IMG/VR virus record: IMGVR_UViG_3300038417_000475
Span: 1-64,000 of that record
Source: a virus
DNA: 64,000 bases
Direction: 5' to 3' (one strand)
The notes below the pieces were generated by a model. The model ran no database searches. It was not told the origin of the DNA and worked only from the letters and a program-made list of their open reading frames with translations. Both the position numbers and the translations under genes were made by a program. This document shows positions 41,084 to 55,406 of the stretch, piece after piece (the stretch's first letter is position 1; each line of letters starts with the position of its first letter).

Positions 41084-43726
41084 CTAGATGACGGCTGCAG
41101 CCAGGAGCTTGGCTGCATTACCCCCAAGAGCCGAGACCGGCTTCCGGCCAAGGATAAGACCGGCCGAGACATAATCCAGAGCAGGAGAGCCTGACGGAGT
41201 CAGTACAAAGTAAGCGTTTTTCTTGGCTCTCCAGCTTACAGGGTGAGTCGCTATTCCGAACGTGTCATTTCCTGATACAGTAACGGAGAGACCAGTAGGA
41301 TTTCCGTCAGTGTACAAGGTAAGAGTCCAGGACTTTCCTACTCCCGGAGCCGTCTTGCACTTCAAGCAGATGGTGTTAGGATAGCAGTCATAAGGAGTTA
41401 TGCAGACTTCATTCCCCGGTATGGAAGCATCTACCCAGCTTATGTTGCAGGCATTGACTTCTATCTCCGCTCTAGTGGGGATGGTATTAAATCCCGGCAT
41501 CCCCCTGGTCAGGAGGTAGACCTCGTAGTCCATTCCGATGAAGCAGAAGCCAAAGTAAGGCCAACCTGGGGGGCTTCCTCCCGACGCAGTCGCTTCCCAC
41601 CAGAACTGGTCACCAGGTACAAAGTCAATTACCGTGGTGTCGTCGTAGTAGACGTCGTTATGGCCTTGGGCGACAGGGACACCGTGGAAGGTGACACTGG
41701 TACTGACTCCGTTCTTCATCAGGGTAAGGTCGGTAGTATCACTTCCTCCACCAGTCCAACCTGTCATGGCAGCGAAGTACTTCATCTGGCCAGTATGGAC
41801 CATCGTGGTCTTGGATTGTTCCAGTGTTCCACCGCTGCCTCCAAGCAGTCCACTGTAGCTTGGAGGGAAAGCCTGAAGATATCCTTGGGACATGGGGAAG
41901 TAGCCATCTGTCAGAGGCGTGAAGTCAGCTGACCAAGAGAATTGCCCATTCTGTGCACAGGGGACGTACCAGGAGAGTATGTCTCCTTTTTGTATTTCGC
42001 AAAGGGTGGCCAGATCTTCATGGTATTTTTCGTTAGCGTAGAAGTCGAGGTGTAGAAGGTCTACAGTCTGGATAACATGGTTTACATCCAAATAGCTGCG
42101 TCGGAGGGTGTAGGTGACAGGCGTACTAATCATCACCGGGTCATCTGTTAGCTGAAGCCGGACATTCTGGAGCTGGCCAGAGATGGTGATGATGCCAGAA
42201 GGAGGAACTGAATCTTCAACCCAGATAGAGCCCTGGAACTGCCCTATGTTCTGGTTCCCGCCAATGCTTGCTCCAGTGAACCAGCCAAGCAGGGAGAATG
42301 TAGTGAGCCCAAGAGTATGGACGCTGACCTCCGCTCCATACCCGTAGTGGCCATTGCTGCCCAGAGCGTAAGCCCGGTAGTAATAGATGGTAGCTGGAGT
42401 CAGGCCACTCAGTCCCGTAGAAAAAGGTCCTGTCCCAAAGCTTCCTCCGCTAGAGCACCAGTTAGGATATCCGGAAAGACTTGGGGCTACATCTCCCGGG
42501 TCACCGTGAGGTGATGTATCCCAGACAAAGCACTCATTGGTGATGACAGTGTCATTGATAGCGGTTACATTCCCATTCAGGGTGGCTACTGTTTTGCCTA
42601 CGGAAGTTGCTGGCTGAGTTGTCACCGTAGGCACTCCGCTGAGAATAGTGAATCCGCCCAACAGCGTGCCGGTGCCATAGGAGTTGGTGACAGAGATATC
42701 CCGAGCGCCAACAGCAGCCCCATTCGCAATAGTGATATTCGCTGTGATCTGGTTGTCGTTATCTACGGTGAAGCTGTTGACGGTGATGCCAGCTCCGTAG
42801 CTCACTACCGTGGCTCCGGTGAAGTTGGAGCCGGCTATGACATCGCTGGCGATGGTAGCTCCCTGGTGGCCTGAGTTGGGAGTAGCTGATGTGGGCAGCG
42901 GGGCAGCAGTGAGCACAGTGAAGCCATCAGTTAGAGTTCCTGTACCATCCGGCGAGGTGACAGAGACATCTCTCGCTCCCAGGACCGCTCCAGAAGCTAT
43001 AGCGATATCTACCGTGATATGAGAATCATCCACCACATCGAGGCCGCTTACTGTTATCCCGGCACCGAAGCTCACAGAAGTGGCTCCAGTGAAGTGAGCT
43101 CCACCAATAGCCACCCCAAGGATAGTAGCCCCCTGAATACCGGTGTTCGGAGTGACTGAGAGCACAGAAGGAGCCGGCGGAACGGGCAGGCTGTAATCTA
43201 TCATGAGAGAAACCCCGCTCATCGCAGCATAGTTCATCCAGTTCGATCTCTCATTGTGGTCATCCACAAACATCTCAACATTGTCTATCGAAAAGGCGTT
43301 GACGAGCTCCTGGATGATGGCGGTTACATCGAAGGGGTTATCGCCGTTTATCCAGGTATGGCTTACCACATTTACTAAGGCCAGGGTTACCAGTCCTGTA
43401 TCAACCACTGTCCCCCCAGGGACAAGGCCTCTCCTGGCCATATAGTCAGCAAGGTCAGCTATTAGGCCAGGTGAAGCGACTAGCTGGGCCTTAATATAGT
43501 TGGTTGGGGTAGCGTTACTATATCCACAGGTGACAGTTAAGATTGCGCTGTTGATGGTCGACCCTAGTGGAATGGTAACACCGAGAGGGTGATGAGAGCC
43601 GAAACCAAATCTGTCTACTCCATAATATGCTATGCTTCCTACAGCAAGGCCATAGCCGGAGTTTTGCCATGGACCACCATAGTCTACGTCGTAGAGTTGG
43701 TCAGCGGCTATAGTGATAACTGGCAT
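41084..43726 (-). CDS. large beta-rich virion surface/receptor-binding protein with tandem IPT/TIG (Ig-like) and FN3-like domains
   Basis: Two repeats SVTPN.G.QGATI....I.G..FTGAT.VS.GAGITV...GARD.SVT; PTVTT.PAT...GLTPATIYYYRAYA. Confidence 0.8.
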   Translation of the reverse strand: MPVITIAADQLYDVDYGGPWQNSGYGLAVGSIAYYGVDRFGFGSHHPLGVTIPLGSTINSAILTVTCGYSNATPTNYIKAQLVASPGLIADLADYMARRGLVPGGTVVDTGLVTLALVNVVSHTWINGDNPFDVTAIIQELVNAFSIDNVEMFVDDHNERSNWMNYAAMSGVSLMIDYSLPVPPAPSVLSVTPNTGIQGATILGVAIGGAHFTGATSVSFGAGITVSGLDVVDDSHITVDIAIASGAVLGARDVSVTSPDGTGTLTDGFTVLTAAPLPTSATPNSGHQGATIASDVIAGSNFTGATVVSYGAGITVNSFTVDNDNQITANITIANGAAVGARDISVTNSYGTGTLLGGFTILSGVPTVTTQPATSVGKTVATLNGNVTAINDTVITNECFVWDTSPHGDPGDVAPSLSGYPNWCSSGGSFGTGPFSTGLSGLTPATIYYYRAYALGSNGHYGYGAEVSVHTLGLTTFSLLGWFTGASIGGNQNIGQFQGSIWVEDSVPPSGIITISGQLQNVRLQLTDDPVMISTPVTYTLRRSYLDVNHVIQTVDLLHLDFYANEKYHEDLATLCEIQKGDILSWYVPCAQNGQFSWSADFTPLTDGYFPMSQGYLQAFPPSYSGLLGGSGGTLEQSKTTMVHTGQMKYFAAMTGWTGGGSDTTDLTLMKNGVSTSVTFHGVPVAQGHNDVYYDDTTVIDFVPGDQFWWEATASGGSPPGWPYFGFCFIGMDYEVYLLTRGMPGFNTIPTRAEIEVNACNISWVDASIPGNEVCITPYDCYPNTICLKCKTAPGVGKSWTLTLYTDGNPTGLSVTVSGNDTFGIATHPVSWRAKKNAYFVLTPSGSPALDYVSAGLILGRKPVSALGGNAAKLLAAAVI

Positions 43727-43767
43727 GTTTCCTCTTTAAGACTGGATGACCCCGGGGTGGTCGACAT

Positions 43768-44694
43768 CTAGACCTTCAGATAGATCCGGATACCAACCTC
43801 TACGTCGTGGAGCTCCAGGCCGGCTACGCCAGTGATGATGGCATTAAGCCACTGGAACTGGTAGGTATCTGCGGCAGTGATGTTGCCGGGATCGAAGCCA
43901 ACTCTGACGTCGCCTGGTCCCGGGCTTGCTACGTCTGTCCAGAGCTGAGCATCGGCCCAGTTGATGCAGGTAATGTAGCTCCCGCCGCCTTTGCGGACCT
44001 GAATGTACTGACCTCCGCTAAGCTCGTTGATATTGGCCCCATCGAGGTTGAGGCGCATCCCGAACTTGAACAGAGGAATACATTGGACCACTGTGAAGCC
44101 GGCTGGGAAGGCTCCAGCTGGTAAGACCACAGCGGGCAAGGCCAAAGACGCAGGAGTGGTGTCCGGCAGGGTGATCTTGGCAACGGGTGTAGCATTCCAG
44201 AACTCCAGGAAGCCCAGAGCATGATTGATTGTAGGTATGGCTCCAATCAGAGTCGCCAACTCTGCAAGACCGTACCCCGGGTCAGTGAGCAGCGATCCGA
44301 TTGCTGAGATCAATGTGGCCAAGTCTGTGCTGGGATTCCCCAGCTTGGCCACTATGCTTGTTAGATGATCGGAACTAGGGTCACCAATGGCCGCGAACAT
44401 CTTCTTGAGGTAATTGCCTGGGCTGAAAGCAAGGTCAAAGGTGTCTCCGTTAGCCGGCGCAGATGTCCACCGATCTAAGGCCGCAAACGTCATAGCCTTA
44501 GTAGCTCCGGTGTAAGTATCTACTTGATGGGATTGCCCGGCTAGTGCTCCGCTGGTAAATATGAGCAAACTACCATCATAGAAGTCATTGACCGCTGAGG
44601 GTAAGTTGGTAACAAACCCTGATACAGATGGAGCAGCATCATTCACTGCTCCGGGAATTACAAGGAGAGGAGTTACGCTCGAACCGCCAGCCAT
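43768..44694 (-). CDS. putative virion spike/fibre protein
   Basis: NDFY.G..L.FTSG...GQ...V..Y.G....T......AP..GDTF motif seen in phage structural proteins. Confidence 0.55.
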   Translation of the reverse strand: MAGGSSVTPLLVIPGAVNDAAPSVSGFVTNLPSAVNDFYDGSLLIFTSGALAGQSHQVDTYTGATKAMTFAALDRWTSAPANGDTFDLAFSPGNYLKKMFAAIGDPSSDHLTSIVAKLGNPSTDLATLISAIGSLLTDPGYGLAELATLIGAIPTINHALGFLEFWNATPVAKITLPDTTPASLALPAVVLPAGAFPAGFTVVQCIPLFKFGMRLNLDGANINELSGGQYIQVRKGGGSYITCINWADAQLWTDVASPGPGDVRVGFDPGNITAADTYQFQWLNAIITGVAGLELHDVEVGIRIYLKV

Positions 44695-45494
44695 TACGTT
44701 TGCTCCACGATGAAGGAGACTATTTGATTGGCCGCGTTACTCGAGAGCCAGATACTGTTCGTATTAGCCACACCTAAGCTCAAATCCTCACGGGCTACCA
44801 GGGTCCGGCTCTTGGTGGGATCCAGGACCGATACCTTGTCGAAGGCCACATAACACATGCCGGTGTTGTTGGGATGACCTTGCAACAGCACTTTATACCC
44901 GGTCGGTATGACAAATGCGGGCACGGGATAAGCAGTACTCGGGACGACGCAGGTGACTGTGAACGCCACTCCCGAGCTGGGGTTCGGTGGAGGAACCAGG
45001 CCACCGATCGCAGTCAGGATAAGGATTAAAGTCGCTTGTACAGCCTGAAGAGTTGCCTGGCTTGCCCTCGTGGACAGGGGAACATCCAACGCGAGGGCTA
45101 TATTCGCATTGGCGATGACATAAGGAGTCCCCCGTTCTACCTGGACGCCACCTGGCAAAGTCGGGAAAGTAATCGTGTCACTGGTATTGGAACTGATGAG
45201 GACAGGATACCTCTGGCCCCCAATGTCCATCTGGAGGTGAGCGCCGGGCCAGATATTAGCCCCCCAGTACTTGGAGCTATCCCTGAGAGTTGTGGGGCTT
45301 CCCCCTGTGGCTATGCCGAAATCCAGAGGCACGAGGCCGGTTATAGGCATGCCTAAGGAGGCAAAGATCTTAAGCAGGTCTGCACGCCCTCCAGTAGGGC
45401 CTCTCTCCGCAACTAGCTGCTTGATGGCCTCGACCAGCTCATGTAACTCAGTCCACGGAGCTTCCGGAAGTTTGTCTCTAAGCCCCAATACCAT
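44694..45494 (-). CDS. putative virion structural protein
   Basis: ATGGS.TTL.DSSK.W..N.W.G....I.SNT..TITF motif; beta-rich C-terminal domain. Confidence 0.55.
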   Translation of the reverse strand: MVLGLRDKLPEAPWTELHELVEAIKQLVAERGPTGGRADLLKIFASLGMPITGLVPLDFGIATGGSPTTLRDSSKYWGANIWPGAHLQMDIGGQRYPVLISSNTSDTITFPTLPGGVQVERGTPYVIANANIALALDVPLSTRASQATLQAVQATLILILTAIGGLVPPPNPSSGVAFTVTCVVPSTAYPVPAFVIPTGYKVLLQGHPNNTGMCYVAFDKVSVLDPTKSRTLVAREDLSLGVANTNSIWLSSNAANQIVSFIVEQT

Positions 45495-45505: not shown

Positions 45506-46447
45506 TTACGAGATGGGTAATGCAGTGATGCCGAAGTAGTTCAGGCCCATCAGTCCGGCCTTTCCGCTGCCGCAGACATCACAGGCATGAGCATTATCAG
45601 CAAAGCCCACCAGATGGTTGTCATCAATCACCAGCTGGCCAGGGCTAGGAGTATTCACCACTTGGATTCCCACCCCGTTGACCGGATCGGTGGTAGATAC
45701 CTTATTGCTCAGGATCTTCCGGTATGGCCGGCTGGAGCTGTTCTGCACATCCTGGATTCCGATGGCGCCGGTCGGGACCTGAATAATATTCCTTCTGGTC
45801 ACGCAGCCGCCCCCGTTGTTGCGGACAGCCACGGTCACGAAGTCATCAAAGCGGCAGTCCTCAACTATGGTCCAAGGAGCATCACTGCCCACTCCGCCGG
45901 CATAGACGCCATAGGTTGCTACCCCATTGCCGCCGAAGCAGCAATCGTGGACATGAGACCTCCAGGTATTCAAGCCCCAAGCATCCTCAGCCACGCCGAT
46001 ACAGAGCTTCGCCGCCAGCTGATGGAAGCCTAAGCCCGCAATCTCCACTGAATCGGCCTTGATGTTGATAAGCTCCATATTGTCGGATAAGCCACCCTTG
46101 ATAGTCGGCTGCCCCCAAGTCAAGCCTGAGGACATGTTGCCCAGTATCTTCAGTCCCTTCTGGGTCACTACAAGAGTTCCAGCCTCAATGGTAGTCGCGT
46201 ACTGAATTCCCACCAGGATGATGTCGTAGGGACTGGCCACGGCCAGGGCTTTGGTGATGGTGGCGAAGGCCTTGGACCAGGGGTAGCCTGCCCAGGAATC
46301 ACTGCCGCCGGTCGCTCCATTCACACACCATATAGTGCCTGGCATGTTCACTGCACCGAGTATCCCTCCAGGAGCTACAAGGGAGCCACTCGGCCCCAGG
46401 TTCATTGGGCCGTAAATTCTCTCTCCTGCAATACGTTCGCCTATCAT
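45506..46447 (-). CDS. right-handed beta-helix (pectin-lyase-fold) protein
   Basis: G.SW..AFATI..AL, then repeating Asn/Cys-ladder strands (HDCCF, EDCRF, RRNII); AAGGAGG RBS at this ATG. Confidence 0.75.
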   Translation of the reverse strand: MIGERIAGERIYGPMNLGPSGSLVAPGGILGAVNMPGTIWCVNGATGGSDSWAGYPWSKAFATITKALAVASPYDIILVGIQYATTIEAGTLVVTQKGLKILGNMSSGLTWGQPTIKGGLSDNMELINIKADSVEIAGLGFHQLAAKLCIGVAEDAWGLNTWRSHVHDCCFGGNGVATYGVYAGGVGSDAPWTIVEDCRFDDFVTVAVRNNGGGCVTRRNIIQVPTGAIGIQDVQNSSSRPYRKILSNKVSTTDPVNGVGIQVVNTPSPGQLVIDDNHLVGFADNAHACDVCGSGKAGLMGLNYFGITALPIS

Positions 46448-46458
46448 CAGTAGCCTCC

Positions 46459-46806
46459 TTAGAAGTACTCGTAGTCCACAACGGTCAGGCAGCCAGCGTC
46501 TGCTGAGTCTGCATAGCATTTCAGAGTTCCCAGAAACTCCTTCTCCCTCAGCTCATCTGCCTTGATCACCACCATTAAGCCTTTTGGCACAGAATACTGG
46601 GCCCTTATAAGGGTTTGGGATGAACCTGCCGGTGTGCCTATCGAGGGGTCAATGGTGACATCATCCCGGAAGTAGATGATGTGGTCTGCACTTCCGCCTG
46701 AATTGTCAATAGTGATATCAGTCATCCTCAGCTTCCGCTCATAGGGAACTGTTGCCAGGGTGACAATGTTTCCGACTGCGAATGCTGCTGTTCTCGCTGT
46801 AGCCAT
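46459..46806 (-). CDS. putative small beta-rich structural protein
   Basis: GGAGGT RBS; alternating beta pattern. Confidence 0.55.
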   Translation of the reverse strand: MATARTAAFAVGNIVTLATVPYERKLRMTDITIDNSGGSADHIIYFRDDVTIDPSIGTPAGSSQTLIRAQYSVPKGLMVVIKADELREKEFLGTLKCYADSADAGCLTVVDYEYF

Positions 46807-46856: not shown

Positions 46857-47636
46857 TCAGAACGATTGCATCTCGGTGTACCACTCGATGAGAGTGGCTT
46901 TGTCCTGCATCTGTTCCCACCTGGAGTCGTCGATCACCTTCGCCCCGACAGGGACGGACGGGATCACGGCTCCCATTGGCGTCTGGGTCGGTGCCAGCGC
47001 CGCCGCCTGGGCCTGCATCGACTTGGCCAGCACTTCTCTGAGCGGGCACTTGTTGATATAGAAGTCGATGGTCACCTTTTCGAAGTCTACGCCATCGACA
47101 AAGGGAGCCAGCACGAAGGCCGTCTGGCTGTATATCGCGTACAACTTCCACAGCGGGCTTCTGTCCGGGCTGTCATCAGGCCTCTTGGCACCGAGGTACC
47201 TGTAGTACTGGTTGGTGATATCCGGGAAGATGGAGTTCGAGCCCACAGTGTACACATACTGGCTCTTGGGCACATAGAGCTGGACGAAATAGTTGCCCTT
47301 ATGGAGGCCAATGGCTATCTCGTACAGGATGCCAGTCTGGGCCGGATAAGCCTGCAGGGTGCCGGAGATGCCCGGCGGGGAAGCCATATTGGGGACATTC
47401 TGGTTTGACAGGTCGAGGAGCTGGTAGTCTGACCCCGGGAGCTTCAGAGCCACCGGGAACTTCACCAGGACCGGATCTGCCGCAACCTCGAAGGTGCGAC
47501 CAGAGGCCCAGGCGAAGCCGGCCTGGTTGGGGAACAACGATGAGAATTTGAACCAGGAGCCTTTCTTGGCGAGGACATCCTCAGGGCGTACAGAAATGTC
47601 TGCTTTGCCGAATAACTTGGCAAGTTCTATGATCAT
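46857..47636 (-). CDS. putative structural protein
   Basis: GGAGG RBS; beta-rich, in the structural run. Confidence 0.6.
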   Translation of the reverse strand: MIIELAKLFGKADISVRPEDVLAKKGSWFKFSSLFPNQAGFAWASGRTFEVAADPVLVKFPVALKLPGSDYQLLDLSNQNVPNMASPPGISGTLQAYPAQTGILYEIAIGLHKGNYFVQLYVPKSQYVYTVGSNSIFPDITNQYYRYLGAKRPDDSPDRSPLWKLYAIYSQTAFVLAPFVDGVDFEKVTIDFYINKCPLREVLAKSMQAQAAALAPTQTPMGAVIPSVPVGAKVIDDSRWEQMQDKATLIEWYTEMQSF

Positions 47637-47733: not shown

Positions 47734-48000
47734 TTACTCTGCGTCGACCAGCATGGCAATGTAGACCACATCACCAGTAGTCGCTGGCTCCCAGTCACTC
47801 CAGCTGCCAGAATAGACATTCTTCTCTACAGTTACCGTCAACACATTCCCGGATATGGACCATGAGGTTGCTAGCAGAGTGGAGGTGGTAAATTTGTTAC
47901 AGATAGCTACTAGTGCAGACTTGATGTGCACAAACTCGCCAAACTCCTGGACGACCTGTCCCCCAGCAGTTAGAGCAGTAGCTACTTTCATCATAAGCAT
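47734..48000 (-). CDS. small structural protein, paralog 2
   Basis: QEFGEFV.I.SALV.I.N.F shared with 48010-48309. Confidence 0.65.
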   Translation of the reverse strand: MLMMKVATALTAGGQVVQEFGEFVHIKSALVAICNKFTTSTLLATSWSISGNVLTVTVEKNVYSGSWSDWEPATTGDVVYIAMLVDAE

Positions 48001-48009
48001 AGTAGCCTC

Positions 48010-48331: not shown

Positions 48332-49183
48332 CTAGAGCGACTTATTCTGCGACTGCGCGACTATGAGAGAGATCATCTCGAAGTCCGTGTCGTTGGTGGC
48401 CGTTGCCGGGCCATCAGGCATCACATCCACCAGCTGGGTCTTCAGAGGCGGGATGATGATGGGCTTCTCGAAGCGGGTGAACGAGACCTCCCTGCCGACG
48501 CCCCAGGTCTTCTTGTAGTTCCGGGAACAAGGCTGAGGAGGAGAAGCCGTGCCGCCCAGGGTGAACTGAATACCCTCGATCTTGGGGACCTGGATCTTCT
48601 CGATGGCTCCGAGATGGATCATGCCGGCATACTGCCACATGGTTTGCGACGGGATATAGCCGTTGGTTGGCTTGGTGCCACCAGTAAGACCAGTGGTCAA
48701 CCAGTCAAACACACCCGCCGAAGTGCCACCATAAAGACCTAGAGAAGCTGTCTTCAGTGGGTTCAACAGCACCCCGCCGACATCCTTCGGCCTCATCGGC
48801 CAGATATCGAGCTGGGTGCCCTGGGCCAGGATGCCGCCGAATGAAGACTGGGTCTGCCACTTCACCGCTTCGATGGTCGCCAGGATGTTCAGGATCTCCT
48901 CGGCGATCATGATGGCAATGTCCTCCTGCTCCTTATTGCGGAAGATCATGTCCAGCTTGGAACAGACGGCGTTGACTTCATCAGGCGATAACCCCATCAG
49001 GGTGAGGGCGACTGCCGTTTTTCCGGAGTCGATCAGGGCGGCTGTCCAGTTAAAGGACCCGCCGTTCAGGAATGCCAGGGAGCCCAGCGGACTGTTGACT
49101 GTAGACCAGTCGAAAGGCTTGGGGCCCGGTGGCGCCTGCTGGATGAGATTGTTATTCTTGCAAAACGTGTAGATAAGTGCCAT
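48332..49183 (-). CDS. candidate major capsid protein (possibly jelly-roll; fold not confirmed)
   Basis: Strong AAGGAGG RBS, strongly C/G-ending codons, helical N-half and beta-rich C-half (FEKPIIIPP...); heads the structural run. The ORF is solid, the function is inferred. Confidence 0.4.
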   Translation of the reverse strand: MALIYTFCKNNNLIQQAPPGPKPFDWSTVNSPLGSLAFLNGGSFNWTAALIDSGKTAVALTLMGLSPDEVNAVCSKLDMIFRNKEQEDIAIMIAEEILNILATIEAVKWQTQSSFGGILAQGTQLDIWPMRPKDVGGVLLNPLKTASLGLYGGTSAGVFDWLTTGLTGGTKPTNGYIPSQTMWQYAGMIHLGAIEKIQVPKIEGIQFTLGGTASPPQPCSRNYKKTWGVGREVSFTRFEKPIIIPPLKTQLVDVMPDGPATATNDTDFEMISLIVAQSQNKSL

Positions 49184-49236: not shown

Positions 49237-49683
49237 CTAGAGACTGCCTCTTGCCCCCTGCATGGCCACAGACTGAGTGAGATGAGCCTGGGTGAAGGCA
49301 CTCAGGCCGGGCACCGCAGTACGGAGACCTTCAGGCGCGGCGGCTATTAACTCAGCAGGACTCTCTTTCACCTTGAGCCCATCTCCTATAGCCTTAGCTT
49401 TCTGTCCCGTCAGCTGATTCAGCTTCAGGTTGGCCGTGGATTCCCCCTTCGCGAGCAGAGAAGAAACCTTCGGCACTCCGGGGATATTCTCCTCAACCTT
49501 GGAGACGATAGGGGCTACCCTGGGCAAACGCAGGCCTGAAATACTTGCCGTACCTCCCAGGTTAGGTACCTTGCCGGCGATCTTGGACATGATGCCCGAT
49601 ATACTGGGCGCTCCATTGGGCAGGATCGATTCAATCTTCTGCGGGATTACGACGGGCTTTAGTAAAGCTGCTTGAACACCCAT
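49237..49683 (-). CDS. amphipathic protein with shared C-terminal PEGLRTAVPGLSAF...MQGARGSL tail
   Basis: C-terminal ~32 aa nearly identical to 52998-53390. Confidence 0.65.
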   Translation of the reverse strand: MGVQAALLKPVVIPQKIESILPNGAPSISGIMSKIAGKVPNLGGTASISGLRLPRVAPIVSKVEENIPGVPKVSSLLAKGESTANLKLNQLTGQKAKAIGDGLKVKESPAELIAAAPEGLRTAVPGLSAFTQAHLTQSVAMQGARGSL

Positions 49684-49710: not shown

Positions 49711-50055
49711 TTAGGGCATCCATTTTTGGATATCGCCCTGGACTTTGCCGATCGTCTCCTCAGCTGCGGTACTTACAGCATGACGGACGCCATCAACGCC
49801 ATTCTTGGCATTACCGATGGCACCCTGCACCGCGTCTCTGGCTGTTGACAAGTCGGCGCCGGCCTGGCTCACCGCATCTGAGGCGGCTGACTTCGCTGAG
49901 CCGAGGACGCTTTCGGCAGTGCCTACCACAACATCTTTGGCCCCGTCAGCAACACTGTCGACAGCACCGAGAAAGCCTTCGGCAACATCCTTCGCGCCTT
50001 CAGCAAGTCCGTCAGCAACCTTGAGAAGATCCGGTAATGTAGGTCCCTTTGCCAT
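49711..50055 (-). CDS. Ala/Asp/Val-rich amphipathic helical (apolipoprotein/LEA-like) protein
   Basis: Helical repeats ADGLAEGAKDV / VADGAKDV; AAGGAGGTG RBS. Confidence 0.6.
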   Translation of the reverse strand: MAKGPTLPDLLKVADGLAEGAKDVAEGFLGAVDSVADGAKDVVVGTAESVLGSAKSAASDAVSQAGADLSTARDAVQGAIGNAKNGVDGVRHAVSTAAEETIGKVQGDIQKWMP

Positions 50056-50081
50056 ATCCACACCTCCTTCGGTGATATTTG

Positions 50082-50220: not shown

Positions 50221-52539
50221 TTACATTTGATTGTCGATATACGTTTTCAGAAGCGAATAATTTATAAGTCCCCAACCGTAATCATTGCTCTTGGCTGAGG
50301 CATAATCGCCATATATCGACATCGCAGCCTTGATATGCTCCGTGGTCAGGACCTTCCCCTTTTTACGGGCATACTGGATCGCCAGGGCTGTCACGTATGC
50401 GGCATGGGGTGTGGCCATTGACGTGCCGGAAATCGCGGCAAGCTGCGGAGGTCCGTCTCCAAGCTGCATGGCTGCGATATATCCGTTGGAAGTCGAAAGG
50501 ATATCCACACCCGGAGCCACCACGTCGGGCTTGATGAATCCGGCTTTCGTGGGGCCTCGAGAGGAGAAGCTGGCTATGTTTCCGTGGATATCCACAGCTC
50601 CGACAGTCAACGCATCCGGTGAACAGCCGGGGCCTCCTACAGTCATCTGGCCAGGGCCGCTGTTGCCGGCAGCGATACAACAGATGATCCCAAGTTGCGT
50701 CATGGCGGTGATGGCCTGGCATTCCGGGTCATTCAGGTAATCATCGGGTTCGTCCCCTCCCAAAGACATCGAGATGATATCGGCTTTCCAGTGCAGAGCG
50801 TTCATCAGGCCGGCCAGTATCCAGCTTGCCATCCCTACGCCGATCCCGCCGCCCAGGACTTTGAACGGACGAACCTCTGCTCCCGGAGCTCCGCCCTTGA
50901 GCAACGCTCCTCGCGCAGGCCCGGCGAGAACCTTAAAAGGCCTCCCGCCGATGCAGGTGTTACACCAGGTATTGTGGATAAAAGCCATACCTTGTTTACC
51001 AGCAAGGTAATAAGGGCTTTCTGGGTCAAGGGTGAAATCATAGAGGAACCCCTTGAAGTCTATCTCCTCAACAGATTTGGGCAATAGGTAAGGGGCTGTT
51101 CTGTGAACTTCAGTGTAGAGAGGCCTTTTCAGCTTCAGGTAGGGAATCAACGCCTCGGTCATCCGGGTAAATCCTGCATCTACAGCAGATACTTGGTAAC
51201 AAACCTTCTTCCCTTTACCAGAAGGTTTCTGTTTTGTAAACCGTCCTCCAAAACCTAGAACACCGAACAGGCTAACGATTTGCTGTGCCAGTTGCCTTGA
51301 AGTAGTGCTAACCCTGCATCTAGCACGATCAGGGTCGAAATGACCATCACCATCTATGATCCCGGCCAGCACTGCCAGGAGTACATTCGTGGGTTGTTTT
51401 AAGAGCCTCTCCGGTATGGTATTCTCTTTCCGTCTTAGACCTAGCGCAATGAACTCTCTTTTCAATCCTGATACCTCAATGCTTCTACTCTTCTTGCGTT
51501 TTTTGGGAGTCCAAGCACAATAATGATAGCCGAGCTGCTTCAGATATGTCTCAATAGCAGGCCCTTCGTCATGGTGTAGAGAAAGGTTCACGGCACTGTG
51601 ATGGAAACAGCCCTCAGCTATGAACAGCCCTGCCAAGTAGGCCAGATCTGTATTCACAGTCTGTACGAAAGGCAGATTGATGATCTGCTCATTCGTAGCC
51701 AGACCGTAATTTCTATGGGACTGAATCAGGTCAGAAGCTCTCACATCCCTGTATCTTTTGCACCGTGGCTCATAGATTTTGAATGGATGCCACGGAGTTG
51801 TCACAAATTCAGATGTCCCGGCTTTCACTTTTATCAATTTGCCGTCGAAAGGAATCTTGTGTACAGCCAAGACCCTTACAGGTTTTCTGAAGCCGATCGT
51901 CCATGTGGGATCTACGGGTATTTTGGTAAATCCCAGTTCACTCTGGACCTCTGGAACCTTCAAATTCTCATAGAGGTCTTGGAATCGCACAAGGCCACAG
52001 AACGTAGTATAGACAAAGGCTTCTCCCTCAATGCAACCATGGCCGACCTCATCGAACATAAAAGGCTGGCCGGGTACCGATGATTTACCATGTCCGAAGT
52101 ATCCCTGGACCGCGAAATCCAAGGCTGTACCGGTATCGAGCACTGCAACTTTTACACCTTTGCCGGTGATACCGTCCGCGGCAGCTACGTCCGCTCCCAC
52201 CATCTGCCCGCTCACCGATGTCGGGATCCTCTCGTGCGAGGAGTCGGAGGCGGCATAAGCCATGGCTTTCGCCGGCCCCGTGATGGGGTTGGAGAGGAAG
52301 AGGTTGATGAACTTGGAAAACTTCTGATCTACCGGCATGGTGATGCGGATGGCCCGTATCTGCTCCGGTTTCACGTTGAGCACATAAGGCACAGCTTCTA
52401 TCGCCGCTACCTGGTTAGGCTGGATATCCACCTTCACAAAATTGAAATCGAGAGGAGCAGGGAATATACCCATCTTGGTCAGAGAAATGTTGACCTCGGC
52501 AAGATGAATAGGGTCTACCTGGACAAGGTATTTAGCCAT
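50221..52539 (-). CDS. subtilisin-like serine peptidase (S8) containing an intein (spliced product 417 aa)
   Basis: VAVLDTG (Asp), GHG|T (His), AAGNSG, SGTSMATPH (Ser); N-terminal I9-like propeptide. Confidence 0.92.
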   Translation of the reverse strand: MAKYLVQVDPIHLAEVNISLTKMGIFPAPLDFNFVKVDIQPNQVAAIEAVPYVLNVKPEQIRAIRITMPVDQKFSKFINLFLSNPITGPAKAMAYAASDSSHERIPTSVSGQMVGADVAAADGITGKGVKVAVLDTGTALDFAVQGYFGHGKSSVPGQPFMFDEVGHGCIEGEAFVYTTFCGLVRFQDLYENLKVPEVQSELGFTKIPVDPTWTIGFRKPVRVLAVHKIPFDGKLIKVKAGTSEFVTTPWHPFKIYEPRCKRYRDVRASDLIQSHRNYGLATNEQIINLPFVQTVNTDLAYLAGLFIAEGCFHHSAVNLSLHHDEGPAIETYLKQLGYHYCAWTPKKRKKSRSIEVSGLKREFIALGLRRKENTIPERLLKQPTNVLLAVLAGIIDGDGHFDPDRARCRVSTTSRQLAQQIVSLFGVLGFGGRFTKQKPSGKGKKVCYQVSAVDAGFTRMTEALIPYLKLKRPLYTEVHRTAPYLLPKSVEEIDFKGFLYDFTLDPESPYYLAGKQGMAFIHNTWCNTCIGGRPFKVLAGPARGALLKGGAPGAEVRPFKVLGGGIGVGMASWILAGLMNALHWKADIISMSLGGDEPDDYLNDPECQAITAMTQLGIICCIAAGNSGPGQMTVGGPGCSPDALTVGAVDIHGNIASFSSRGPTKAGFIKPDVVAPGVDILSTSNGYIAAMQLGDGPPQLAAISGTSMATPHAAYVTALAIQYARKKGKVLTTEHIKAAMSIYGDYASAKSNDYGWGLINYSLLKTYIDNQM
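50971..52035 (-). mobile_element. intein with LAGLIDADG homing endonuclease (355 aa)
   Basis: N-terminal CIEGE, TPWH, LAGLFIAEG and LAGIIDGDG, C-terminal IHN followed by Thr. Confidence 0.93.
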
Positions 52540-52546: not shown

Positions 52547-52942
52547 TCACTCTGTAGGGATATTCAAAGCGCCCTCAATACGTCCCAACCTGGTCGAGAT
52601 ATCCTGCAGGGGCTCTGCCAGTTCCTTTTGAGTCACGCAATTCTCAAGGTGAGCGGTTATCCGTGTATCTGTCACCGCTAGCGCCCCCTTGATTTCGGCC
52701 AGGTCCTTTATCATCCGGCCGCCTATGTCCACTAAACTTTTGTCCACTTCCGCCTTGTGATTTTCATGCGCTCTCCACAGTTTATCGAGAGAATCACCCT
52801 GGTCCTTCTGTACCTTCCCCTGGGCTTTCTGCGTATCCGTAATCTCCTGATACCGTCTCCCGAATGTCCATGCCGTGGTCAGGGCACCGGCAGCAACTCC
52901 TCCTACGCTGGAGATCGTATACCACAATGCGTTTAAGTCCAT
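52547..52942 (-). CDS. N-terminal TM plus coiled-coil protein
   Basis: Hydrophobic N-terminus; ends ...I..RL.RIEG. Confidence 0.6.
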   Translation of the reverse strand: MDLNALWYTISSVGGVAAGALTTAWTFGRRYQEITDTQKAQGKVQKDQGDSLDKLWRAHENHKAEVDKSLVDIGGRMIKDLAEIKGALAVTDTRITAHLENCVTQKELAEPLQDISTRLGRIEGALNIPTE

Positions 52943-52997: not shown

Positions 52998-53390
52998 TTA
53001 TAAGCTACCTCTTGCCCCTTGCATATCTACCGACTGAGTCAGATGCGTTGTGGTGAAGGCGCTCAAGCCCGGCACCGCAGTACGCAGACCTTCAGGCACC
53101 GACTCTATCAGCTCGGGCGCGGCCTCTGTTACCTCAGGGGTTTGTATCTCAGGGGCTGCCGCAGCAACATTTGCTCGTATTTCGGAAATATCATTGATCA
53201 TGCCGGGAGTCGGCAACCGCTTTTTCGGCATCTTCCGGATATCGGTTATCATGCTGGTCTTTCCAACGGTAGGCAGATCAGGAAGCTGACCGGCCACACG
53301 GAGCAGTAATGGGGACACCCGAGGAAGAGCAGTGCCCTGCTCAACTTTTGAAATCCGAGAGGCAAATGTCTTTAACGGATTCATCTTCAT
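52998..53390 (-). CDS. paralog with shared C-terminal MQGARGSL tail
   Basis: PEGLRTAVPGLSAFTTTHLTQSVDMQGARGSL. Confidence 0.65.
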   Translation of the reverse strand: MKMNPLKTFASRISKVEQGTALPRVSPLLLRVAGQLPDLPTVGKTSMITDIRKMPKKRLPTPGMINDISEIRANVAAAAPEIQTPEVTEAAPELIESVPEGLRTAVPGLSAFTTTHLTQSVDMQGARGSL

Positions 53391-53395
53391 CCCCC

Positions 53396-54388
53396 CTAGA
53401 GTTTAGGTATCCTGTCCAATATGGGAGCCACCTTATTGATCTCAGTTTCAAGTTTTGACACTCTCGCCTTCAGGTCACTCACCGTACTCTCATCAGCTGT
53501 CAATTTGTCCTGGAGCGTAGCAATATTCTGGTTCGCGGCAGCCAGGGCCGCGTTCGCTTTATCCGTAGAAGCCTGGTTGGCATCATCGATTCTCTTGTTC
53601 AGTGCTGCCGTAGTCAGGGGGAATTCGTTCTCGAGGTCACCGATTCTGCCATCTGAGTTATTTATCTTGTCTGCCATCTTGGCATCAAGATCACTGATGT
53701 TCTGGTTGGCTGCCGCCAGAGCTGCATTGGCCTTGTCGGTGGCATCTGACTTGGCTTGGGCTAGTGCACTATCTGTATAATCTGTCCACAAGGGTCTTTC
53801 AGCTACAGAGGTGCTCTCAATCTGTGCTTTTATATTGGCCCAGTCATCTCCAGTCCTGTTCTTGATGTTGTCTAGCCTTGTCATAACCCCGTTAAGGTCA
53901 TCTCGCGCACTATCTATCTGACCCTGCAGGGCATCTCTGGCTGTACCCATATTCTGGTTGGCGGCAGCTAGCGCCTGATTGGACTTCAATGTGGCCCAAT
54001 CCGAGGCAATGGACACTACGCCCTGGTAGTCATCTCCGACTCTGTTTTTGAGGTCGTTCAGTCTTTGGACCGCAGCGGCTGCTTTAGCCTGTGCATCAGC
54101 TATTTGAGCCCGCGAATCAGATGCCCATTGCAGTAACTGGTTAATTTTCGTGTCTACTGCACCGTTTAGATTATCGAAAGTGGTGTTGAGGTCATTCAGC
54201 TTGTTCGCCGCAGTAAGGAGCGCATCAGCCACGTCATACAGGGCTGTATCGATGTCGTTGGCCGGGCCACCCAGAGAGGATATAACATTGGGCCAATGCC
54301 CGAGCTGTGCATAAATACTGTCTGCGACAGCCTTTACTTTTAGTCCAGCCTCCCCTATTTGGTCTTTGACATTGAGAATGTCTTGCAT
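53396..54388 (-). CDS. long coiled-coil protein with internal repeats
   Basis: Repeats TDKANAALAAANQN (x2-3) and RL..(L/I)KNR.GDD (x2). Confidence 0.7.
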   Translation of the reverse strand: MQDILNVKDQIGEAGLKVKAVADSIYAQLGHWPNVISSLGGPANDIDTALYDVADALLTAANKLNDLNTTFDNLNGAVDTKINQLLQWASDSRAQIADAQAKAAAAVQRLNDLKNRVGDDYQGVVSIASDWATLKSNQALAAANQNMGTARDALQGQIDSARDDLNGVMTRLDNIKNRTGDDWANIKAQIESTSVAERPLWTDYTDSALAQAKSDATDKANAALAAANQNISDLDAKMADKINNSDGRIGDLENEFPLTTAALNKRIDDANQASTDKANAALAAANQNIATLQDKLTADESTVSDLKARVSKLETEINKVAPILDRIPKL

Positions 54389-54850
54389 CTACTTCCTTCT
54401 GATCGTCTGCAATACCGCTATGGAACTCAAAGGGCTTTTCTTGTCCCACCCCATAAAGGTCTTGAATTCCTCAGGGGTGAACGAATCGTTGATCTTCCCC
54501 AGGTAGGTATCGCCAACCCTCTGGCCAATAATGGGGCCGACCACAGGCACGAATTCAAGCAGGTCAGCCAGGTCCCGGCCTATGGAGGCTTTGAGCGCGG
54601 CGCTGTGCCCCGGGGTCATCGAAGGGGCTTTGAGCTGGGGCAGACGCAGTTCGGGCAGAGTTACACTCCCGAATGGCGTCCCCATCTCGGCCTCCGGAAG
54701 ATACGGCGCTTTGTCCATAACAGCGTTGATCGCCTTGATAGGCGGAGAGCTGTCAAGTTTCCGGGAGACCTTCAGCGCCGCCCTCCCTAAGGTGCTCTCA
54801 AACGGGAGTTTGCTCGGTATCGGAGGGGGTGGTATCCGTATCGCACCCAT
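54389..54850 (-). CDS. Pro-rich hypothetical protein
   Basis: AGGGGGAG RBS. Confidence 0.6.
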   Translation of the reverse strand: MGAIRIPPPPIPSKLPFESTLGRAALKVSRKLDSSPPIKAINAVMDKAPYLPEAEMGTPFGSVTLPELRLPQLKAPSMTPGHSAALKASIGRDLADLLEFVPVVGPIIGQRVGDTYLGKINDSFTPEEFKTFMGWDKKSPLSSIAVLQTIRRK

Positions 54851-54859
54851 TCTCCCCCC

Positions 54860-55006
54860 TTATTTGGGTATTACGTCCGAGATCCGGGGCAGGAATTTGG
54901 GAAGCACAGACTCAACAGACTGGAAAATCTTGGGAACGCCGGGGATAGCAGGGAGCTTCGTCATCATTCGGACCAGACCCGTGGGCATAGCAACTTGAGC
55001 AGACAT
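54860..55006 (-). CDS. small amphipathic protein related to the 49683 N-region
   Basis: IPGVPKI..SVESVLP..LPRIS; GGAGGTG RBS. Confidence 0.55.
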   Translation of the reverse strand: MSAQVAMPTGLVRMMTKLPAIPGVPKIFQSVESVLPKFLPRISDVIPK

Positions 55007-55066
55007 AACAACACCTCCCGCACATTTTCTCCAAAAAGAGATGCCGAAACCCAAAAAGGTAATTCA

Positions 55067-55096
55067 AAACTAACGGAATCGGAGAAACGTTGTCAA
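55067..55096 (-). promoter_or_regulatory. class B-like promoter
   Basis: TTGACAACGT...N18 spacer...TAGTTT. Confidence 0.6.
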
Positions 55097-55106
55097 GAGG
55101 TTGTGC

Positions 55107-55406
55107 TTATTTTTGGTCTTTGCTGACTTCCCGCAGGAGTTCGATAATCTCAGGAGGAAGGTTCTCCGACAATTTCTTGGCGTCCGCCAGCATTTGACTG
55201 ACCGCCCTTATTTTCTCTATCGGCATCGAGCTGATCAGCCTCACCAGCTCCAGGCCGTTGTCTAAAGACTTGGGGTCTCCGGAGGTCAGGGCCTTGGCTT
55301 TGTCCAGAATCTCGCCGATCTGTTTGAGCTTCCTCTGGTCTATCGCTGCCAGGTCATGGACCAGCTGCTGCGCCTTGCCAACTCCATCAAAAATCTTCGG
55401 CATCAT
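55107..55406 (-). CDS. helical hypothetical protein
   Basis: AGGAGGT RBS. Confidence 0.6.
   Translation of the reverse strand: MMPKIFDGVGKAQQLVHDLAAIDQRKLKQIGEILDKAKALTSGDPKSLDNGLELVRLISSMPIEKIRAVSQMLADAKKLSENLPPEIIELLREVSKDQK

What the first reader, a model, noticed from the sequence alone, without database searches (positions are those of the whole stretch)
41084..55406. Structural-type module with no recognisable head-tail genes: possible membrane-containing, non-tailed large bacterial virus
Seen: 14 kb of co-oriented genes for beta-rich spike-like proteins (Ig repeats, beta-helix), a 283-aa candidate capsid protein, duplicated small beta proteins, amphipathic and coiled-coil proteins and an S8 protease. 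I recognise no terminase, portal, HK97 capsid, tail tube or tape measure. A Zot/A32-like ATPase lies at 26480 and lipid genes flank the module. Inference: a jelly-roll or enveloped virion of an undescribed lineage, with a genome (>64 kb) large for known tailless phages. Head-tail genes could lie outside the window or be too divergent to spot by eye.
Basis: inference. Interest (0 to 1): 0.72.

Follow-up and report, generated by a model that had tools for sequence, protein, structure and literature searches.

The report
Tailless jelly-roll virus particle module
This gene block is most likely the particle-building module of an undescribed group of 69-85 kb peat and sediment viruses that have none of the head, portal, packaging or tail genes of ordinary phages and are instead built around small jelly-roll proteins encoded next to a lipid-synthesis operon.

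Summary
41084-55406 carries 17 co-oriented minus-strand genes: an intein-bearing S8 protease, coiled-coil and paralogous small proteins, Ig-repeat and beta-helix proteins. The contig is complete (85,151 bp, 127-bp end repeat). Pfam scans of 50 ORFs (every ORF of 250 aa or more), PHROG scans of 39, and four six-frame family searches found no terminase, portal, HK97 capsid or tail gene. A second complete relative (69,475 bp) also lacks them.

The order 283 / small paralogs / 259 / 115 aa recurs in 47 metagenome loci, often beside the protease and the lipid operon. A small Walker A/B ATPase at 26465 is shared by both complete genomes and is distantly like STIV B204 and Zot.

A capsid role and a virion membrane are inferred, not shown: the module has almost no membrane proteins.

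Verdict: probable virion module of a new non-tailed lineage (about 0.55). Earlier agents of this scan reported similar large tailless candidates on other, unrelated DNA.

The parts
48332..49183 (-). JR283: the most widely conserved core protein; an N-terminal helical part plus a C-terminal jelly-roll sandwich; candidate shell protein
46857..47636 (-). JR259: second conserved core protein with a jelly-roll sandwich
47734..48309 (-). Two paralogous small beta proteins (88 and 99 aa; family C9) between JR283 and JR259
   Evidence: 45% identical to each other. This position holds 1-3 C9 copies, or two ~250-aa C11 proteins, in relatives. C9 and C11 share an N-terminal ~31 residues (hhalign probability 92%). 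In peat contigs of runs X5 and X12 this cassette is replaced.
46459..46806 (-). b115: conserved small protein directly after JR259
   Evidence: Present in 9 of 13 compared sources, always after JR259. 43% identical to the G001 copy.
44694..45494 (-). p266: conserved protein, not modelled
   Evidence: Present in 6 of 13 sources. 37% identical to the G001 copy. No Pfam or PHROG hit.
43768..44694 (-). p308: partly conserved protein that shares a domain with larger spike-like proteins of relatives
   Evidence: Cluster C5 in 5 of 13 sources, including the G001 618-aa protein.
45506..46519 (-). 337-aa protein with a marginal beta-helix (DUF1565) signature; the start codon is uncertain and overlaps b115
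   Evidence: DUF1565 20.9 bits against a cut-off of 20.3. No homolog in G001.
41084..43726 (-). 880-aa protein with two tandem Ig-like repeats; variable distal, spike-like gene
   Evidence: Repeats seen. Weak Ig-like Pfam hit. Not conserved: G001 has unrelated 618, 680 and 721-aa proteins at this position. Contigs of all 4 runs break at 43059-43095.
50221..52539 (-). S8 subtilase with an N-terminal pro-region-like part and no signal peptide; candidate maturation protease
   Evidence: Peptidase_S8 127.6 bits; phrog_3677 'protease' E 1.6e-34. Found near JR283 in 7 of 46 loci. Asp, His and Ser motifs are conserved in the alignment.
50971..52035 (-). LAGLIDADG intein (residues 169-523) inserted at the catalytic His motif of the protease
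   Evidence: LAGLIDADG_3 47.9 bits and Hom_end 28.1 bits. It begins with Cys, ends with His-Asn and is followed by Thr. 3 of 5 aligned homologs lack the insert at this exact site and 1 other has it.
49237..49683 (-). 148-aa protein, paralog of the 130-aa protein, with a shared C-terminal tail
   Evidence: 43% identity, with the last ~33 residues nearly identical.
52998..53390 (-). 130-aa paralog on the other side of the protease
   Evidence: Lies within the strain-variation hot spot at 52.06-53.36 kb.
49711..50061 (-). 116-aa Ala/Gly/Val-rich protein
   Evidence: Only low-score tape-measure-like PHROG hits (E about 1e-3), read as compositional.
52547..52942 (-). 131-aa protein with a weakly hydrophobic N-terminus followed by a helical region
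   Evidence: N-terminal 12-residue hydropathy 1.61. No family hit.
53396..54388 (-). 330-aa coiled-coil protein; candidate scaffold or internal protein
   Evidence: 28 low-score coiled-coil-type Pfam hits, none above cut-off.
54389..54850 (-). 153-aa protein that travels with the protease
   Evidence: Homologs lie directly beside the S8 gene in L008, L011 and L029.
55107..55406 (-). 99-aa helical protein, first gene of the block after the lipid operon
   Evidence: 31% identical to the G001 102-aa protein at the same position.
55417..62312 (-). Co-oriented lipid operon (reductase, HNH, type III PKS, polytopic membrane protein, further proteins, Mrp-like ATPase) conserved next to the module
   Evidence: Pfam hits. 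Homologs in the same order in G001 and beside JR283 in L008, L011 and L017.
26465..27319 (+). 284-aa Walker A/B ATPase with a basic C-terminal tail; candidate genome-packaging ATPase
   Evidence: Motifs seen. 26% identical to a G001 protein with a C-terminal SAP domain. 677 library relatives. Profile hit to STIV B204 at E 0.0015 covering Walker A and Walker B. Zot in 11 of 52 relatives. Nearest ESM Atlas clusters are 77-100% viral, with Zot or Pox_A32 in a minority of members.
40099..41043 (-). Glycosyltransferase at the distal end of the block
   Evidence: Glyco_trans_1_2 69.9 bits. Not conserved in G001.

Best explanation
The block is the virion-morphogenesis module of a previously undescribed lineage of non-tailed, double-stranded DNA viruses. 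Two complete genomes (85 and 69 kb) and one related 54-kb partial contig are in hand. The hosts are probably bacteria of anoxic peat, sediment and groundwater.

Proposed working; every step here is inferred:
1. A late transcript runs from the lipid operon through the module.
2. The conserved jelly-roll proteins JR283 and JR259, together with the small C9 and b115 proteins, form the particle shell and its vertices.
3. The coiled-coil protein and the paralogous tail-bearing proteins act as internal or scaffolding proteins.
4. The cytoplasmic S8 protease, active only after its intein splices out, trims them during maturation.
5. The variable Ig-repeat, beta-helix and other large distal proteins are host-recognition spikes.
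6. The small Walker A/B ATPase encoded elsewhere in the genome loads the DNA.

Shown: genome completeness; the lack of detectable head-tail genes; the jelly-roll folds of the two proteins; the conserved gene order; the protease and its intein.

Inferred: the particle-forming role of the jelly-roll proteins, the role of the ATPase, and any part played by the lipids.
For: 1. The genome is complete. It has a 127-bp terminal repeat, and IMG/VR classes both G000 and G001 as 'direct terminal repeats', 100% complete.

2. No terminase, portal, HK97 capsid, sheath or tube family was found.
- Pfam scans of 50 G000 ORFs, which include every ORF of 250 aa or more.
- PHROG scans of 39 G000 ORFs.
- Terminase_6N, TerL_ATPase, Phage_portal and Phage_capsid gave 0 of 2 genomes at E <= 1 in six frames.
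- The 10 largest unassigned ORFs of G001 and the 10 largest of the related 54-kb contig G002:C1 gave none either.

4. The gene order JR283 / C9 or C11 / JR259 / b115 / p266 recurs across 13 compared sources, with variable large proteins downstream. A conserved core followed by variable distal genes is the usual layout of virion modules.

5. None of the 18 proteins of the block has a signal-peptide-like N-terminus by a hydropathy check. This argues against exported cell-surface proteins.

6. The ATPase family is mostly virus-associated. Its profile aligns with both Walker regions of the STIV B204 packaging ATPase. It is the only small Walker A plus B ATPase in G000.

7. No relative was found in 72,556 plasmid records or 50,697 phage records.

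Against: 2. In the viral structure library, JR283's best matches are mostly minor-tail, tail-collar, fibre and collagen-like knob proteins of tailed phages and giant viruses. A capsid role is therefore not singled out.

3. Plasmid-type genes are present: a ParA/Mrp-like ATPase, a ParB-like protein and an integrase here; ArdC-N in G001; ParB and DUF932 in G002:C1.

4. No lysis gene was recognised among the ORFs scanned.

5. The ATPase itself matches neither the Pox_A32 nor the Zot Pfam model. It lies 14 kb from the module on the other strand. It was not found in the 10-kb flanks of the other loci or on the 54-kb contig.

6. Weak tape-measure-like hits exist on two low-complexity proteins.

7. 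Roughly 80 smaller ORFs of G000 were not scanned against any family library.

8. The six-frame searches use a loose first look. They also failed to flag the ATPase for Zot, so their negatives are weak on their own.
Confidence: 0.55

Rival explanations
1. The element is a virus, but the particle is pleomorphic or vesicle-like, with no icosahedral protein shell. In this reading a lipid vesicle, possibly containing the operon's polyketide lipid, encloses the DNA. The jelly-roll, Ig and beta-helix proteins are surface spikes, and the Zot-like ATPase drives extrusion or loading, as in plasmaviruses, pleolipoviruses or vesicle-borne plasmids.
For: - The lipid operon is the other large conserved block, and it is contiguous and co-oriented with the module in G000, G001, L008, L011 and L017.
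- JR283's viral-library matches are mainly fibre or knob domains.
- 11 of 52 ATPase relatives match Zot, the assembly ATPase of filamentous phages.
- Partition and plasmid-type genes are present.
Against: - Spikes anchored in a membrane need transmembrane segments. The module proteins have none above a hydropathy of 1.95, and only one weak N-terminal candidate.
- 69-85 kb is far larger than known pleomorphic prokaryotic viruses (from memory: 7-17 kb).
- JR283 is conserved over its full length in 47 loci, unlike typical receptor-binding tips.
Confidence: 0.15
2. The element is a plasmid or another non-viral mobile element. The block encodes cell-envelope functions (surface layers, appendages, lipid remodelling) that act on the host cell and do not form a particle.
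For: - ParA/Mrp-like, ParB-like and integrase genes here; ArdC-N and a TnpB gene in G001; ParB and DUF932 in G002:C1.
- Jelly-roll matches include Ena spore pili and BclA.
- No lysis gene and no hallmark virion gene was recognised.
- Relatives were binned into three MAGs.
Against: - No signal peptides on any of the 18 block proteins.
- No relaxase, coupling protein or secretion ATPase was seen among the ORFs scanned.
- No similarity to 72,556 plasmid records.
- The nearest ESM Atlas clusters of JR283 and of the ATPase are 56-100% viral by their labels.
- Found in only 1 of 401 genomes of the Dehalococcoidia class, and that one is the MAG that brought it in.
Confidence: 0.2
3. The element is a tailed phage whose terminase, portal, HK97 capsid and tail genes are too divergent for profile HMMs. 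The block would then be its baseplate and fibre region.
For: - JR283 resembles knob domains of minor tail and fibre proteins.
- Beta-helix and Ig-repeat proteins are typical of tail spikes.
- Weak tape-measure-like hits.
- ESM Atlas neighbours carry the label Uroviricota where a phylum is known.
Against: - The large terminase is the best-conserved phage gene, and none of the ORFs of 400 aa or more has a terminase-like Walker A plus B pair or any terminase hit.
- The same is true of the ORFs scanned in two further related genomes.
- The proteins shared by the two complete genomes include no unassigned protein of portal or terminase size.
- No sheath, tube or long tape-measure gene is present in 85 kb.
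Confidence: 0.08

Closest known systems
Portogloboviridae: Sulfolobus polyhedral virus 1 (SPV1), coat protein in PDB 6OJ0
   Same: - Non-tailed, with a single-jelly-roll shell protein.
- SPV1's coat protein sits at the base of the two-SJR-MCP branch (passages of PMC8812541 read).
   Different: - The match is weak and tied with other rows within 1 Z; sequence identity is 14%.
- SPV1 infects an archaeon, and its genome is about 20 kb (from memory).
- SPV1 lacks a packaging ATPase (PMC8812541), whereas this lineage has a conserved small ATPase.
- This element carries bacterial-type genes: a DnaN-like clamp, the DnaB N-terminal domain and a GcrA-like domain.
Helvetiavirae (Sphaerolipoviridae, Matsushitaviridae, Simuloviridae; for example Thermus phage P23-77) and the unclassified Salisaeta phage SSIP-1
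   Same: - Non-tailed prokaryotic dsDNA viruses with two different single-jelly-roll capsid proteins and an FtsK/HerA-type ATPase (PMC8812541 and PMC6356626, passages read).
- Here there are two unrelated jelly-roll proteins in one conserved module, plus a small P-loop ATPase.
   Different: - No P23-77, SH1 or HCIV capsid chain appeared among the listed structural matches.
- No sequence match to any GenBank phage, SSIP-1 included if it is in that collection.
- The two jelly-roll genes are not adjacent, and the ATPase lies far from them.
- Few membrane proteins are encoded.
- The genome is 2-5 times larger (from memory: 16-44 kb for these groups).
Prokaryotic double-jelly-roll viruses (Tectiviridae, Corticoviridae, Autolykiviridae; Bamfordvirae)
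   Same: Non-tailed; a spike-bearing particle; an A32/FtsK-type packaging ATPase; a small structural-gene module.
   Different: - No double-jelly-roll candidate was found; the two modelled proteins each have one sandwich.
- Prokaryotic DJR viruses have genomes under 20 kbp (PMC8812541), against 69-85 kb here.
- Those viruses encode many small membrane proteins; this module does not.
STIV B204 / Pox_A32 / Zot group of small P-loop ATPases
   Same: - Size is similar (284 aa against 210 aa).
- Walker A and Walker B with a following conserved Arg align collinearly with B204.
- Relatives match Zot in 11 of 52.
- One structural neighbour cluster carries Pox_A32 in 39% of its members.
   Different: - The protein itself matches neither Pfam model.
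- The best PDB profile hit is in fact a Pch2 AAA+ protein (E 4.4e-4).
- Basic or SAP-type DNA-binding tails are appended.

Membership tests
Tailed phages (Caudoviricetes, Duplodnaviria) | Large terminase subunit | tested here: not met
   No terminase family in Pfam scans of 50 G000 ORFs (all of 250 aa or more) or PHROG scans of 39. Terminase_6N and TerL_ATPase: 0 of 2 complete genomes at E <= 1 in six frames. No ORF of 400 aa or more has a Walker A plus B pair. A form too divergent for HMMs is not excluded.
Tailed phages (Caudoviricetes, Duplodnaviria) | Portal protein | tested here: not met
   No portal family in the same scans. Phage_portal: 0 of 2 genomes. Other portal families were tested only through the hmmscan of ORFs.
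Tailed phages (Caudoviricetes, Duplodnaviria) | HK97-fold major capsid protein | tested here: inconclusive
   Phage_capsid: 0 of 2 genomes, and no capsid family in the scans. The two conserved candidates model as beta sandwiches with jelly-roll matches. Other unassigned ORFs were not modelled.
Helvetiavirae (two single-jelly-roll capsid proteins) | Two different vertical single-jelly-roll major capsid proteins | tested here: inconclusive
   Two unrelated jelly-roll proteins are conserved in one module. No specific match to known helvetiavirus capsid chains was listed. Orientation in a shell cannot be read from monomer models.
Helvetiavirae (two single-jelly-roll capsid proteins) | FtsK/HerA (A32-like) genome-packaging ATPase | tested here: inconclusive
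   Family profile against STIV B204: E 0.0015 with both Walker regions aligned. Direct Pox_A32 and Zot searches found nothing.
Helvetiavirae (two single-jelly-roll capsid proteins) | Internal lipid membrane carrying virus-encoded membrane proteins | not testable with these tools
   Indirect evidence only. The lipid operon is conserved next to the module, but the module has almost no hydrophobic transmembrane segments.
Portogloboviridae (SPV1) | Coat protein with the SPV1-type single jelly roll | tested here: inconclusive
   [not shown]
Bamfordvirae (double-jelly-roll viruses) | [quoted passage not shown] | tested here: inconclusive
   [not shown]
Subtilases (peptidase S8) | Family HMM above cut-off, and the Asp/His/Ser motifs | tested here: met
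   Peptidase_S8 127.6 bits against a cut-off of 21.8. The Asp, His-Gly-Thr and Gly-Thr-Ser-Met-Ala motifs are conserved in the 5-sequence alignment, and the His motif is rebuilt once the insert is removed.
Inteins with a LAGLIDADG homing endonuclease | Insert with endonuclease domain, N-terminal Cys, C-terminal His-Asn, a +1 nucleophile, and absence from orthologs at the same site | tested here: met
   LAGLIDADG_3 47.9 bits and Hom_end 28.1 bits. Border residues seen. 3 of 5 homologs lack the insert and 1 other carries one at the same site.

The most novel reading that the evidence does not exclude
These elements found a new high-rank group of 69-85 kb non-tailed bacterial viruses. Their shell is built from single-jelly-roll proteins unrelated in sequence to any known capsid protein. 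They make their own particle lipid with a conserved polyketide/prenyl lipid operon transcribed together with the virion genes. This would be the first phage known to synthesise rather than borrow its membrane, with a genome several times larger than any characterised jelly-roll phage.
Probability: 0.15. Interest if true: 0.9.

Novelty: new variant of a known kind. Interest (0 to 1): 0.68.

Why it matters
Nearly all known bacterial viruses with genomes above about 45 kb are tailed. A review of membrane-containing phages states that phages carry no lipid-synthesis machinery of their own and take their lipids from the host (PMC6356626, passage read). Prokaryotic double-jelly-roll viruses are described as having genomes under 20 kbp (PMC8812541).

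Here a lineage has two complete genomes of 69 and 85 kb, is found in at least 47 metagenome loci from peat, wetland, groundwater and sediment, and recurs in 23 peat or wetland sequencing studies. It lacks every head-tail hallmark and keeps a jelly-roll module welded to a lipid operon. If the particle is real, this would widen the size range and the biology of non-tailed phages.

It would also give a testable case for how jelly-roll shells scale to large genomes, and for whether a virus can supply its own membrane lipid.

Even the cautious reading is useful. Virus catalogues label such contigs as tailed phages by default, and this one is not recognisably tailed.

Tried and rejected
1. Binding of JR283 to JR259 (complex prediction): 'no answer', score 0.01 against a mark of 0.32. 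This is no evidence either way.

2. Fused or longer forms of JR283: none among the 8000 candidates scored. Weak evidence.

3. Sequence-profile searches of JR283 and JR259 against the PDB: nothing below E 0.2.

4. Paralogy between the core families by hhalign: none, except the shared N-terminus of C9 and C11.

5. A possible link between the 265-aa ORF of the lipid operon (59347-60144) and a 283-aa protein inside the module of the L032/L034/G002 clade. The only PDB lead for that ORF is a mobile-intron endonuclease at E 0.038, so I dropped it as evidence for a lipid link.

6. p248 (contig 82482-83228) lies in the module of L011. It carries a Cys-rich N-terminal motif and has no PDB match. I rejected it as a capsid candidate.

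7. Host assignment. Relatives sit in two Dehalococcoidia MAGs and one ANME-2 MAG. The 54-kb 'Dehalococcoidia' contig is itself a related element with no host genes seen. The family was found in only 1 of 401 genomes of that class. The host remains open.

8. Sequencing runs: no RNA holder was listed, so nothing can be said on expression. The library type (virus-particle fraction or bulk) is not on record.

9. Laid contigs: no intein-free allele of the protease was seen, and no contig spans the whole stretch.

10. Promoter and terminator scans of 39000-58500 gave counts at chance level.

11. Pox_A32 and Zot six-frame searches: no match in G000 or G001.

12. Papers. Three full-text searches listed no paper describing this lineage. 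I read passages of PMC6356626 and PMC8812541 only; the other papers were seen as listings and abstract starts. Supplementary files were not consulted.

Full report
WHAT IS THERE

The window is the first 64,000 bases of a single 85,151-bp contig. The first 100 bases of that contig recur 127 bases from its end. The collection classes the record as a virus with direct terminal repeats, 100% complete.

Between 41084 and 55406, seventeen ORFs on the minus strand follow one another with short gaps. The same strand continues upstream through 55417-62312. That stretch encodes an NAD-dependent reductase, an HNH endonuclease, a type III polyketide synthase, a polytopic membrane protein, further small proteins and an Mrp-like P-loop protein. 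Downstream lies a glycosyltransferase at 40099-41043.

- S8 protease: Peptidase_S8, 127.6 bits.
- Two tandem Ig-like repeats in the 880-aa protein.
- A marginal beta-helix signature in the 337-aa protein: 20.9 bits against a cut-off of 20.3.
- An 88/99-aa paralog pair, 45% identical.
- A 148/130-aa pair with an almost identical C-terminal tail.
- A 330-aa protein with coiled-coil-type hits only.

ARE HEAD-TAIL GENES ELSEWHERE?

I scanned 50 ORFs of the contig against Pfam, including every ORF of 250 aa or more, and 39 against PHROGs. No terminase, portal, capsid, sheath, tube or baseplate family appeared.

The only tail-flavoured results are low-score tape-measure hits.
- The 116-aa Ala/Gly/Val-rich protein: E about 1e-3, 17-18 bits.
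- The coiled-coil protein: TMP_2 at 19.4 bits against a cut-off of 30.2.

I read both as compositional.

Six-frame searches for Terminase_6N, TerL_ATPase, Phage_portal and Phage_capsid found nothing at E <= 1, either in this genome or in a second complete relative. These searches use a loose first look. They also failed to flag the ATPase for Zot or Pox_A32. Their negatives therefore count for less than the ORF scans.

What the contig does encode:
- a C5 methylase, a papain-like peptidase, Ku, an ATP-dependent ligase and a DnaN-like clamp;
- a GcrA/HTH protein, a UvrD-type helicase and a DnaB N-terminal domain protein;
- a Gp3-like protein, a ParB-like protein, a tyrosine integrase and an MmcB-like nuclease;
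- a tRNA-Met.

These are bacterial-type replication and maintenance genes.

RELATIVES

The 283-aa protein (JR283) has 21 relatives in the large protein collection. It also has one relative in IMG/VR on a 69,475-bp record, G001, which has terminal repeats, is classed 100% complete and has 43% G+C. A metagenome scan returned 47 loci from peat, wetland, groundwater and sediment samples. A genome scan returned three MAG contigs, two labelled Dehalococcoidia and one ANME-2.

The 54-kb 'Dehalococcoidia' contig is itself a related element, not a chromosome piece. Its genes are mostly small and co-oriented, and it shares the integrase, several small proteins and the module. Its ten largest ORFs show ParB, DUF932, a helicase and a primase-like zinc finger, but no terminase. 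The ten largest unassigned ORFs of G001 show TnpB, an N6 methylase and ArdC-N, and again no terminase.

The family was found in 1 of 401 sampled genomes of the class, namely the MAG that brought it in. The host is therefore open.

Nothing similar exists in 50,697 GenBank phage records or 72,556 plasmid records, for JR283 or for the ATPase.

Near-identical DNA is present in 24 peat or wetland runs of 23 studies, dated 2017-2021.

WHAT IS CONSERVED

The two complete genomes share only about 20 proteins:
- the module core: JR283, the C9 pair, the 259-aa protein JR259, the 115-aa protein, p266 and the 99-aa first gene;
- the whole lipid operon;
- a 284-aa ATPase;
- a handful of small or enzymatic proteins.

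Across 13 compared sources the order is constant:
1. the lipid operon, where the flank reaches far enough;
2. the S8 protease with its 153-aa companion, or a large Ig-domain protein;
3. small variable proteins;
4. JR283;
5. one to three C9 proteins, or two ~250-aa C11 proteins;
6. JR259;
7. the 115-aa protein;
8. p266 or p308;
9. large proteins that differ between genomes.

C9 and C11 share only an N-terminal stretch of about 31 residues (hhalign probability 92%), as if a common anchor carried different outer parts.

In other peat samples the C9 cassette is replaced by a different sequence, and 52.06-53.36 kb is a hot spot of strain differences.

A conserved core followed by fast-changing distal genes is the usual shape of a virion module.

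FOLDS

JR283 was modelled with 19 sequences and gives a confident model: pLDDT 84.1, pTM 0.88. It has three short helices in the first 110 residues and then an eight-or-more-stranded sandwich.
- Foldseek against the PDB gives birnavirus VP2 (probability 0.99, TM 0.26), the SPV1 coat protein (probability 0.99), Pgp3 and BclA.
- Against predicted viral structures, the best matches are knob domains of minor-tail, collar, fibre and collagen-like proteins, plus birnavirus VP2 again. All have TM 0.2-0.27.

JR259 was modelled with 13 sequences (pLDDT 68.5, pTM 0.69) and is also a jelly-roll sandwich.
- Plant and insect virus coats score 5.6-6.5.
- Tymovirus, FMDV VP2 and geminivirus coats appear among weak Foldseek rows; none is at E <= 0.001.

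The firm result is negative. Neither conserved candidate is HK97-like, and both are single jelly rolls. The positive step from jelly roll to capsid is not established by structure alone.

The argument for it is by elimination. If these elements make a protein shell, its subunit must be among the few proteins they share. Among the unassigned shared proteins, the only ones of suitable size are JR283, JR259 and p266.

THE ATPASE

The 284-aa protein at 26465 has a canonical Walker A, a Walker B and a strongly basic tail. It is the only small Walker A plus B protein in the genome.
- It has 677 relatives in the representative library.
- A profile of 52 of them hits the PDB weakly: a Pch2 AAA+ protein at E 4.4e-4, then the STIV B204 packaging ATPase at E 0.0015. 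In the B204 match, both Walker regions and the segment after Walker B align collinearly.
- 11 of the 52 match Zot and 18 match nSTAND3.
- Some relatives carry HTH or SAP DNA-binding domains, and the G001 ortholog has a SAP domain.
- Language-model and structure neighbours are clusters labelled 77-100% viral. One has Pox_A32 on 39% of its members.

'Zot/A32-like' is thus a fair description of the neighbourhood, but membership is not shown. The gene is also not linked to the module beyond co-occurrence in the two complete genomes.

MEMBRANE

By a simple hydropathy check, none of the 18 proteins of the block has a signal-peptide-like N-terminus. This speaks for cytoplasmic assembly and against exported surface proteins.

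The module also has almost no transmembrane segments. In the whole genome, clear ones occur in the two lipid-operon membrane proteins and in a few small ORFs elsewhere. Known internal-membrane phages encode many small membrane proteins in their structural modules (from memory).

That adjacency is striking. A review states that phages carry no lipid-synthesis machinery and take their lipids from the host (PMC6356626). Even so, the operon could equally serve to remodel the host membrane.

THE PROTEASE AND ITS INTEIN

The S8 protease has an N-terminal pro-region-like segment and no signal peptide.

Residues 169-523 are a LAGLIDADG intein (nt 50971-52035). It is inserted exactly between the Gly and the Thr of the catalytic His-Gly-Thr motif. 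It starts with Cys and ends with His-Asn. Three of five aligned homologs lack the insert at this site, and one other has it. The protease can therefore be active only after splicing.

Its 153-aa neighbour travels with it in three relatives. I propose it as the maturation protease of the particle, with the tail-sharing 148/130-aa proteins and the coiled-coil protein as likely substrates. This is inference.

VERDICT

The best reading, at about 0.55, is a virion module of an undescribed non-tailed virus lineage built around single-jelly-roll proteins.

Rivals:
- a vesicle-like particle in which the jelly rolls are spikes (0.15);
- a plasmid-like element whose block acts on the cell envelope (0.2);
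- a very divergent tailed phage (0.08).

Earlier agents of this scan reported similar 'large tailless jelly-roll' candidates on other genomes, also with SPV1 as the closest structure. A sequence look-up found no relative of JR283 among them. Those notes are parallel leads and not independent support. They may also partly reflect SPV1 being a common top hit for small sandwiches.

Noticed in passing
window 50971-52035 (minus strand), inside the S8 protease gene: A 355-residue LAGLIDADG intein splits the catalytic His-Gly-Thr motif of a subtilase. Three of five homologs lack it and one (L029) has an intein at the same site. Inteins in proteases are unusual. A second intein, in another gene of this genome, was noted by another reader.
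   Followed up: partly
window 47733-48284: In peat contigs of runs X5 and X12 the stretch holding the two small C9 genes is replaced by other sequence. This looks like a swappable cassette within one viral population.
   Followed up: no
window 52060-53360: A hot spot of strain differences (dozens of substitutions and small indels shared by three runs) covers the N-terminal end of the protease gene, the 131-aa gene and the 130-aa paralog. Neighbouring genes are nearly invariant.
   Followed up: no
window 39371-39448 (minus strand): A tRNA-Met (CAT) gene lies just beyond the distal end of the block.
   Followed up: no
window 27316-28296: A 326-aa gene overlaps the stop codon of the ATPase gene (ATGA) and hits only phrog_1362, of unknown function. 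The related contig G002:C1 carries a DUF932 protein (L060:4627-5703). Whether the two are the same family was not tested.
   Followed up: no
window 11366-12727: A 453-aa protein with motifs that look like a GHKL-type ATPase N-box and G1-box by eye, matching only phrog_6077 (unknown function, E 3.6e-15).
   Followed up: no
window 61197-62312: The Mrp/NUBPL-type P-loop protein at the head of the lipid operon matches its Pfam model in two stretches, and is 84 residues longer than its G001 ortholog (371 against 287 aa). It may carry an insertion.
   Followed up: no
L004:6524-7678 (G001): The 69-kb relative carries an IS605-type OrfB/TnpB gene (OrfB_IS605 85.9 bits).
   Followed up: no
window 16075-16404 against L003 7372-7782: The first ~27 residues of a 109-aa plus-strand protein resemble the N-termini of two small module proteins of G001 (46-48% identity over 26-27 residues). 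This may be another shared short N-terminal motif.
   Followed up: no
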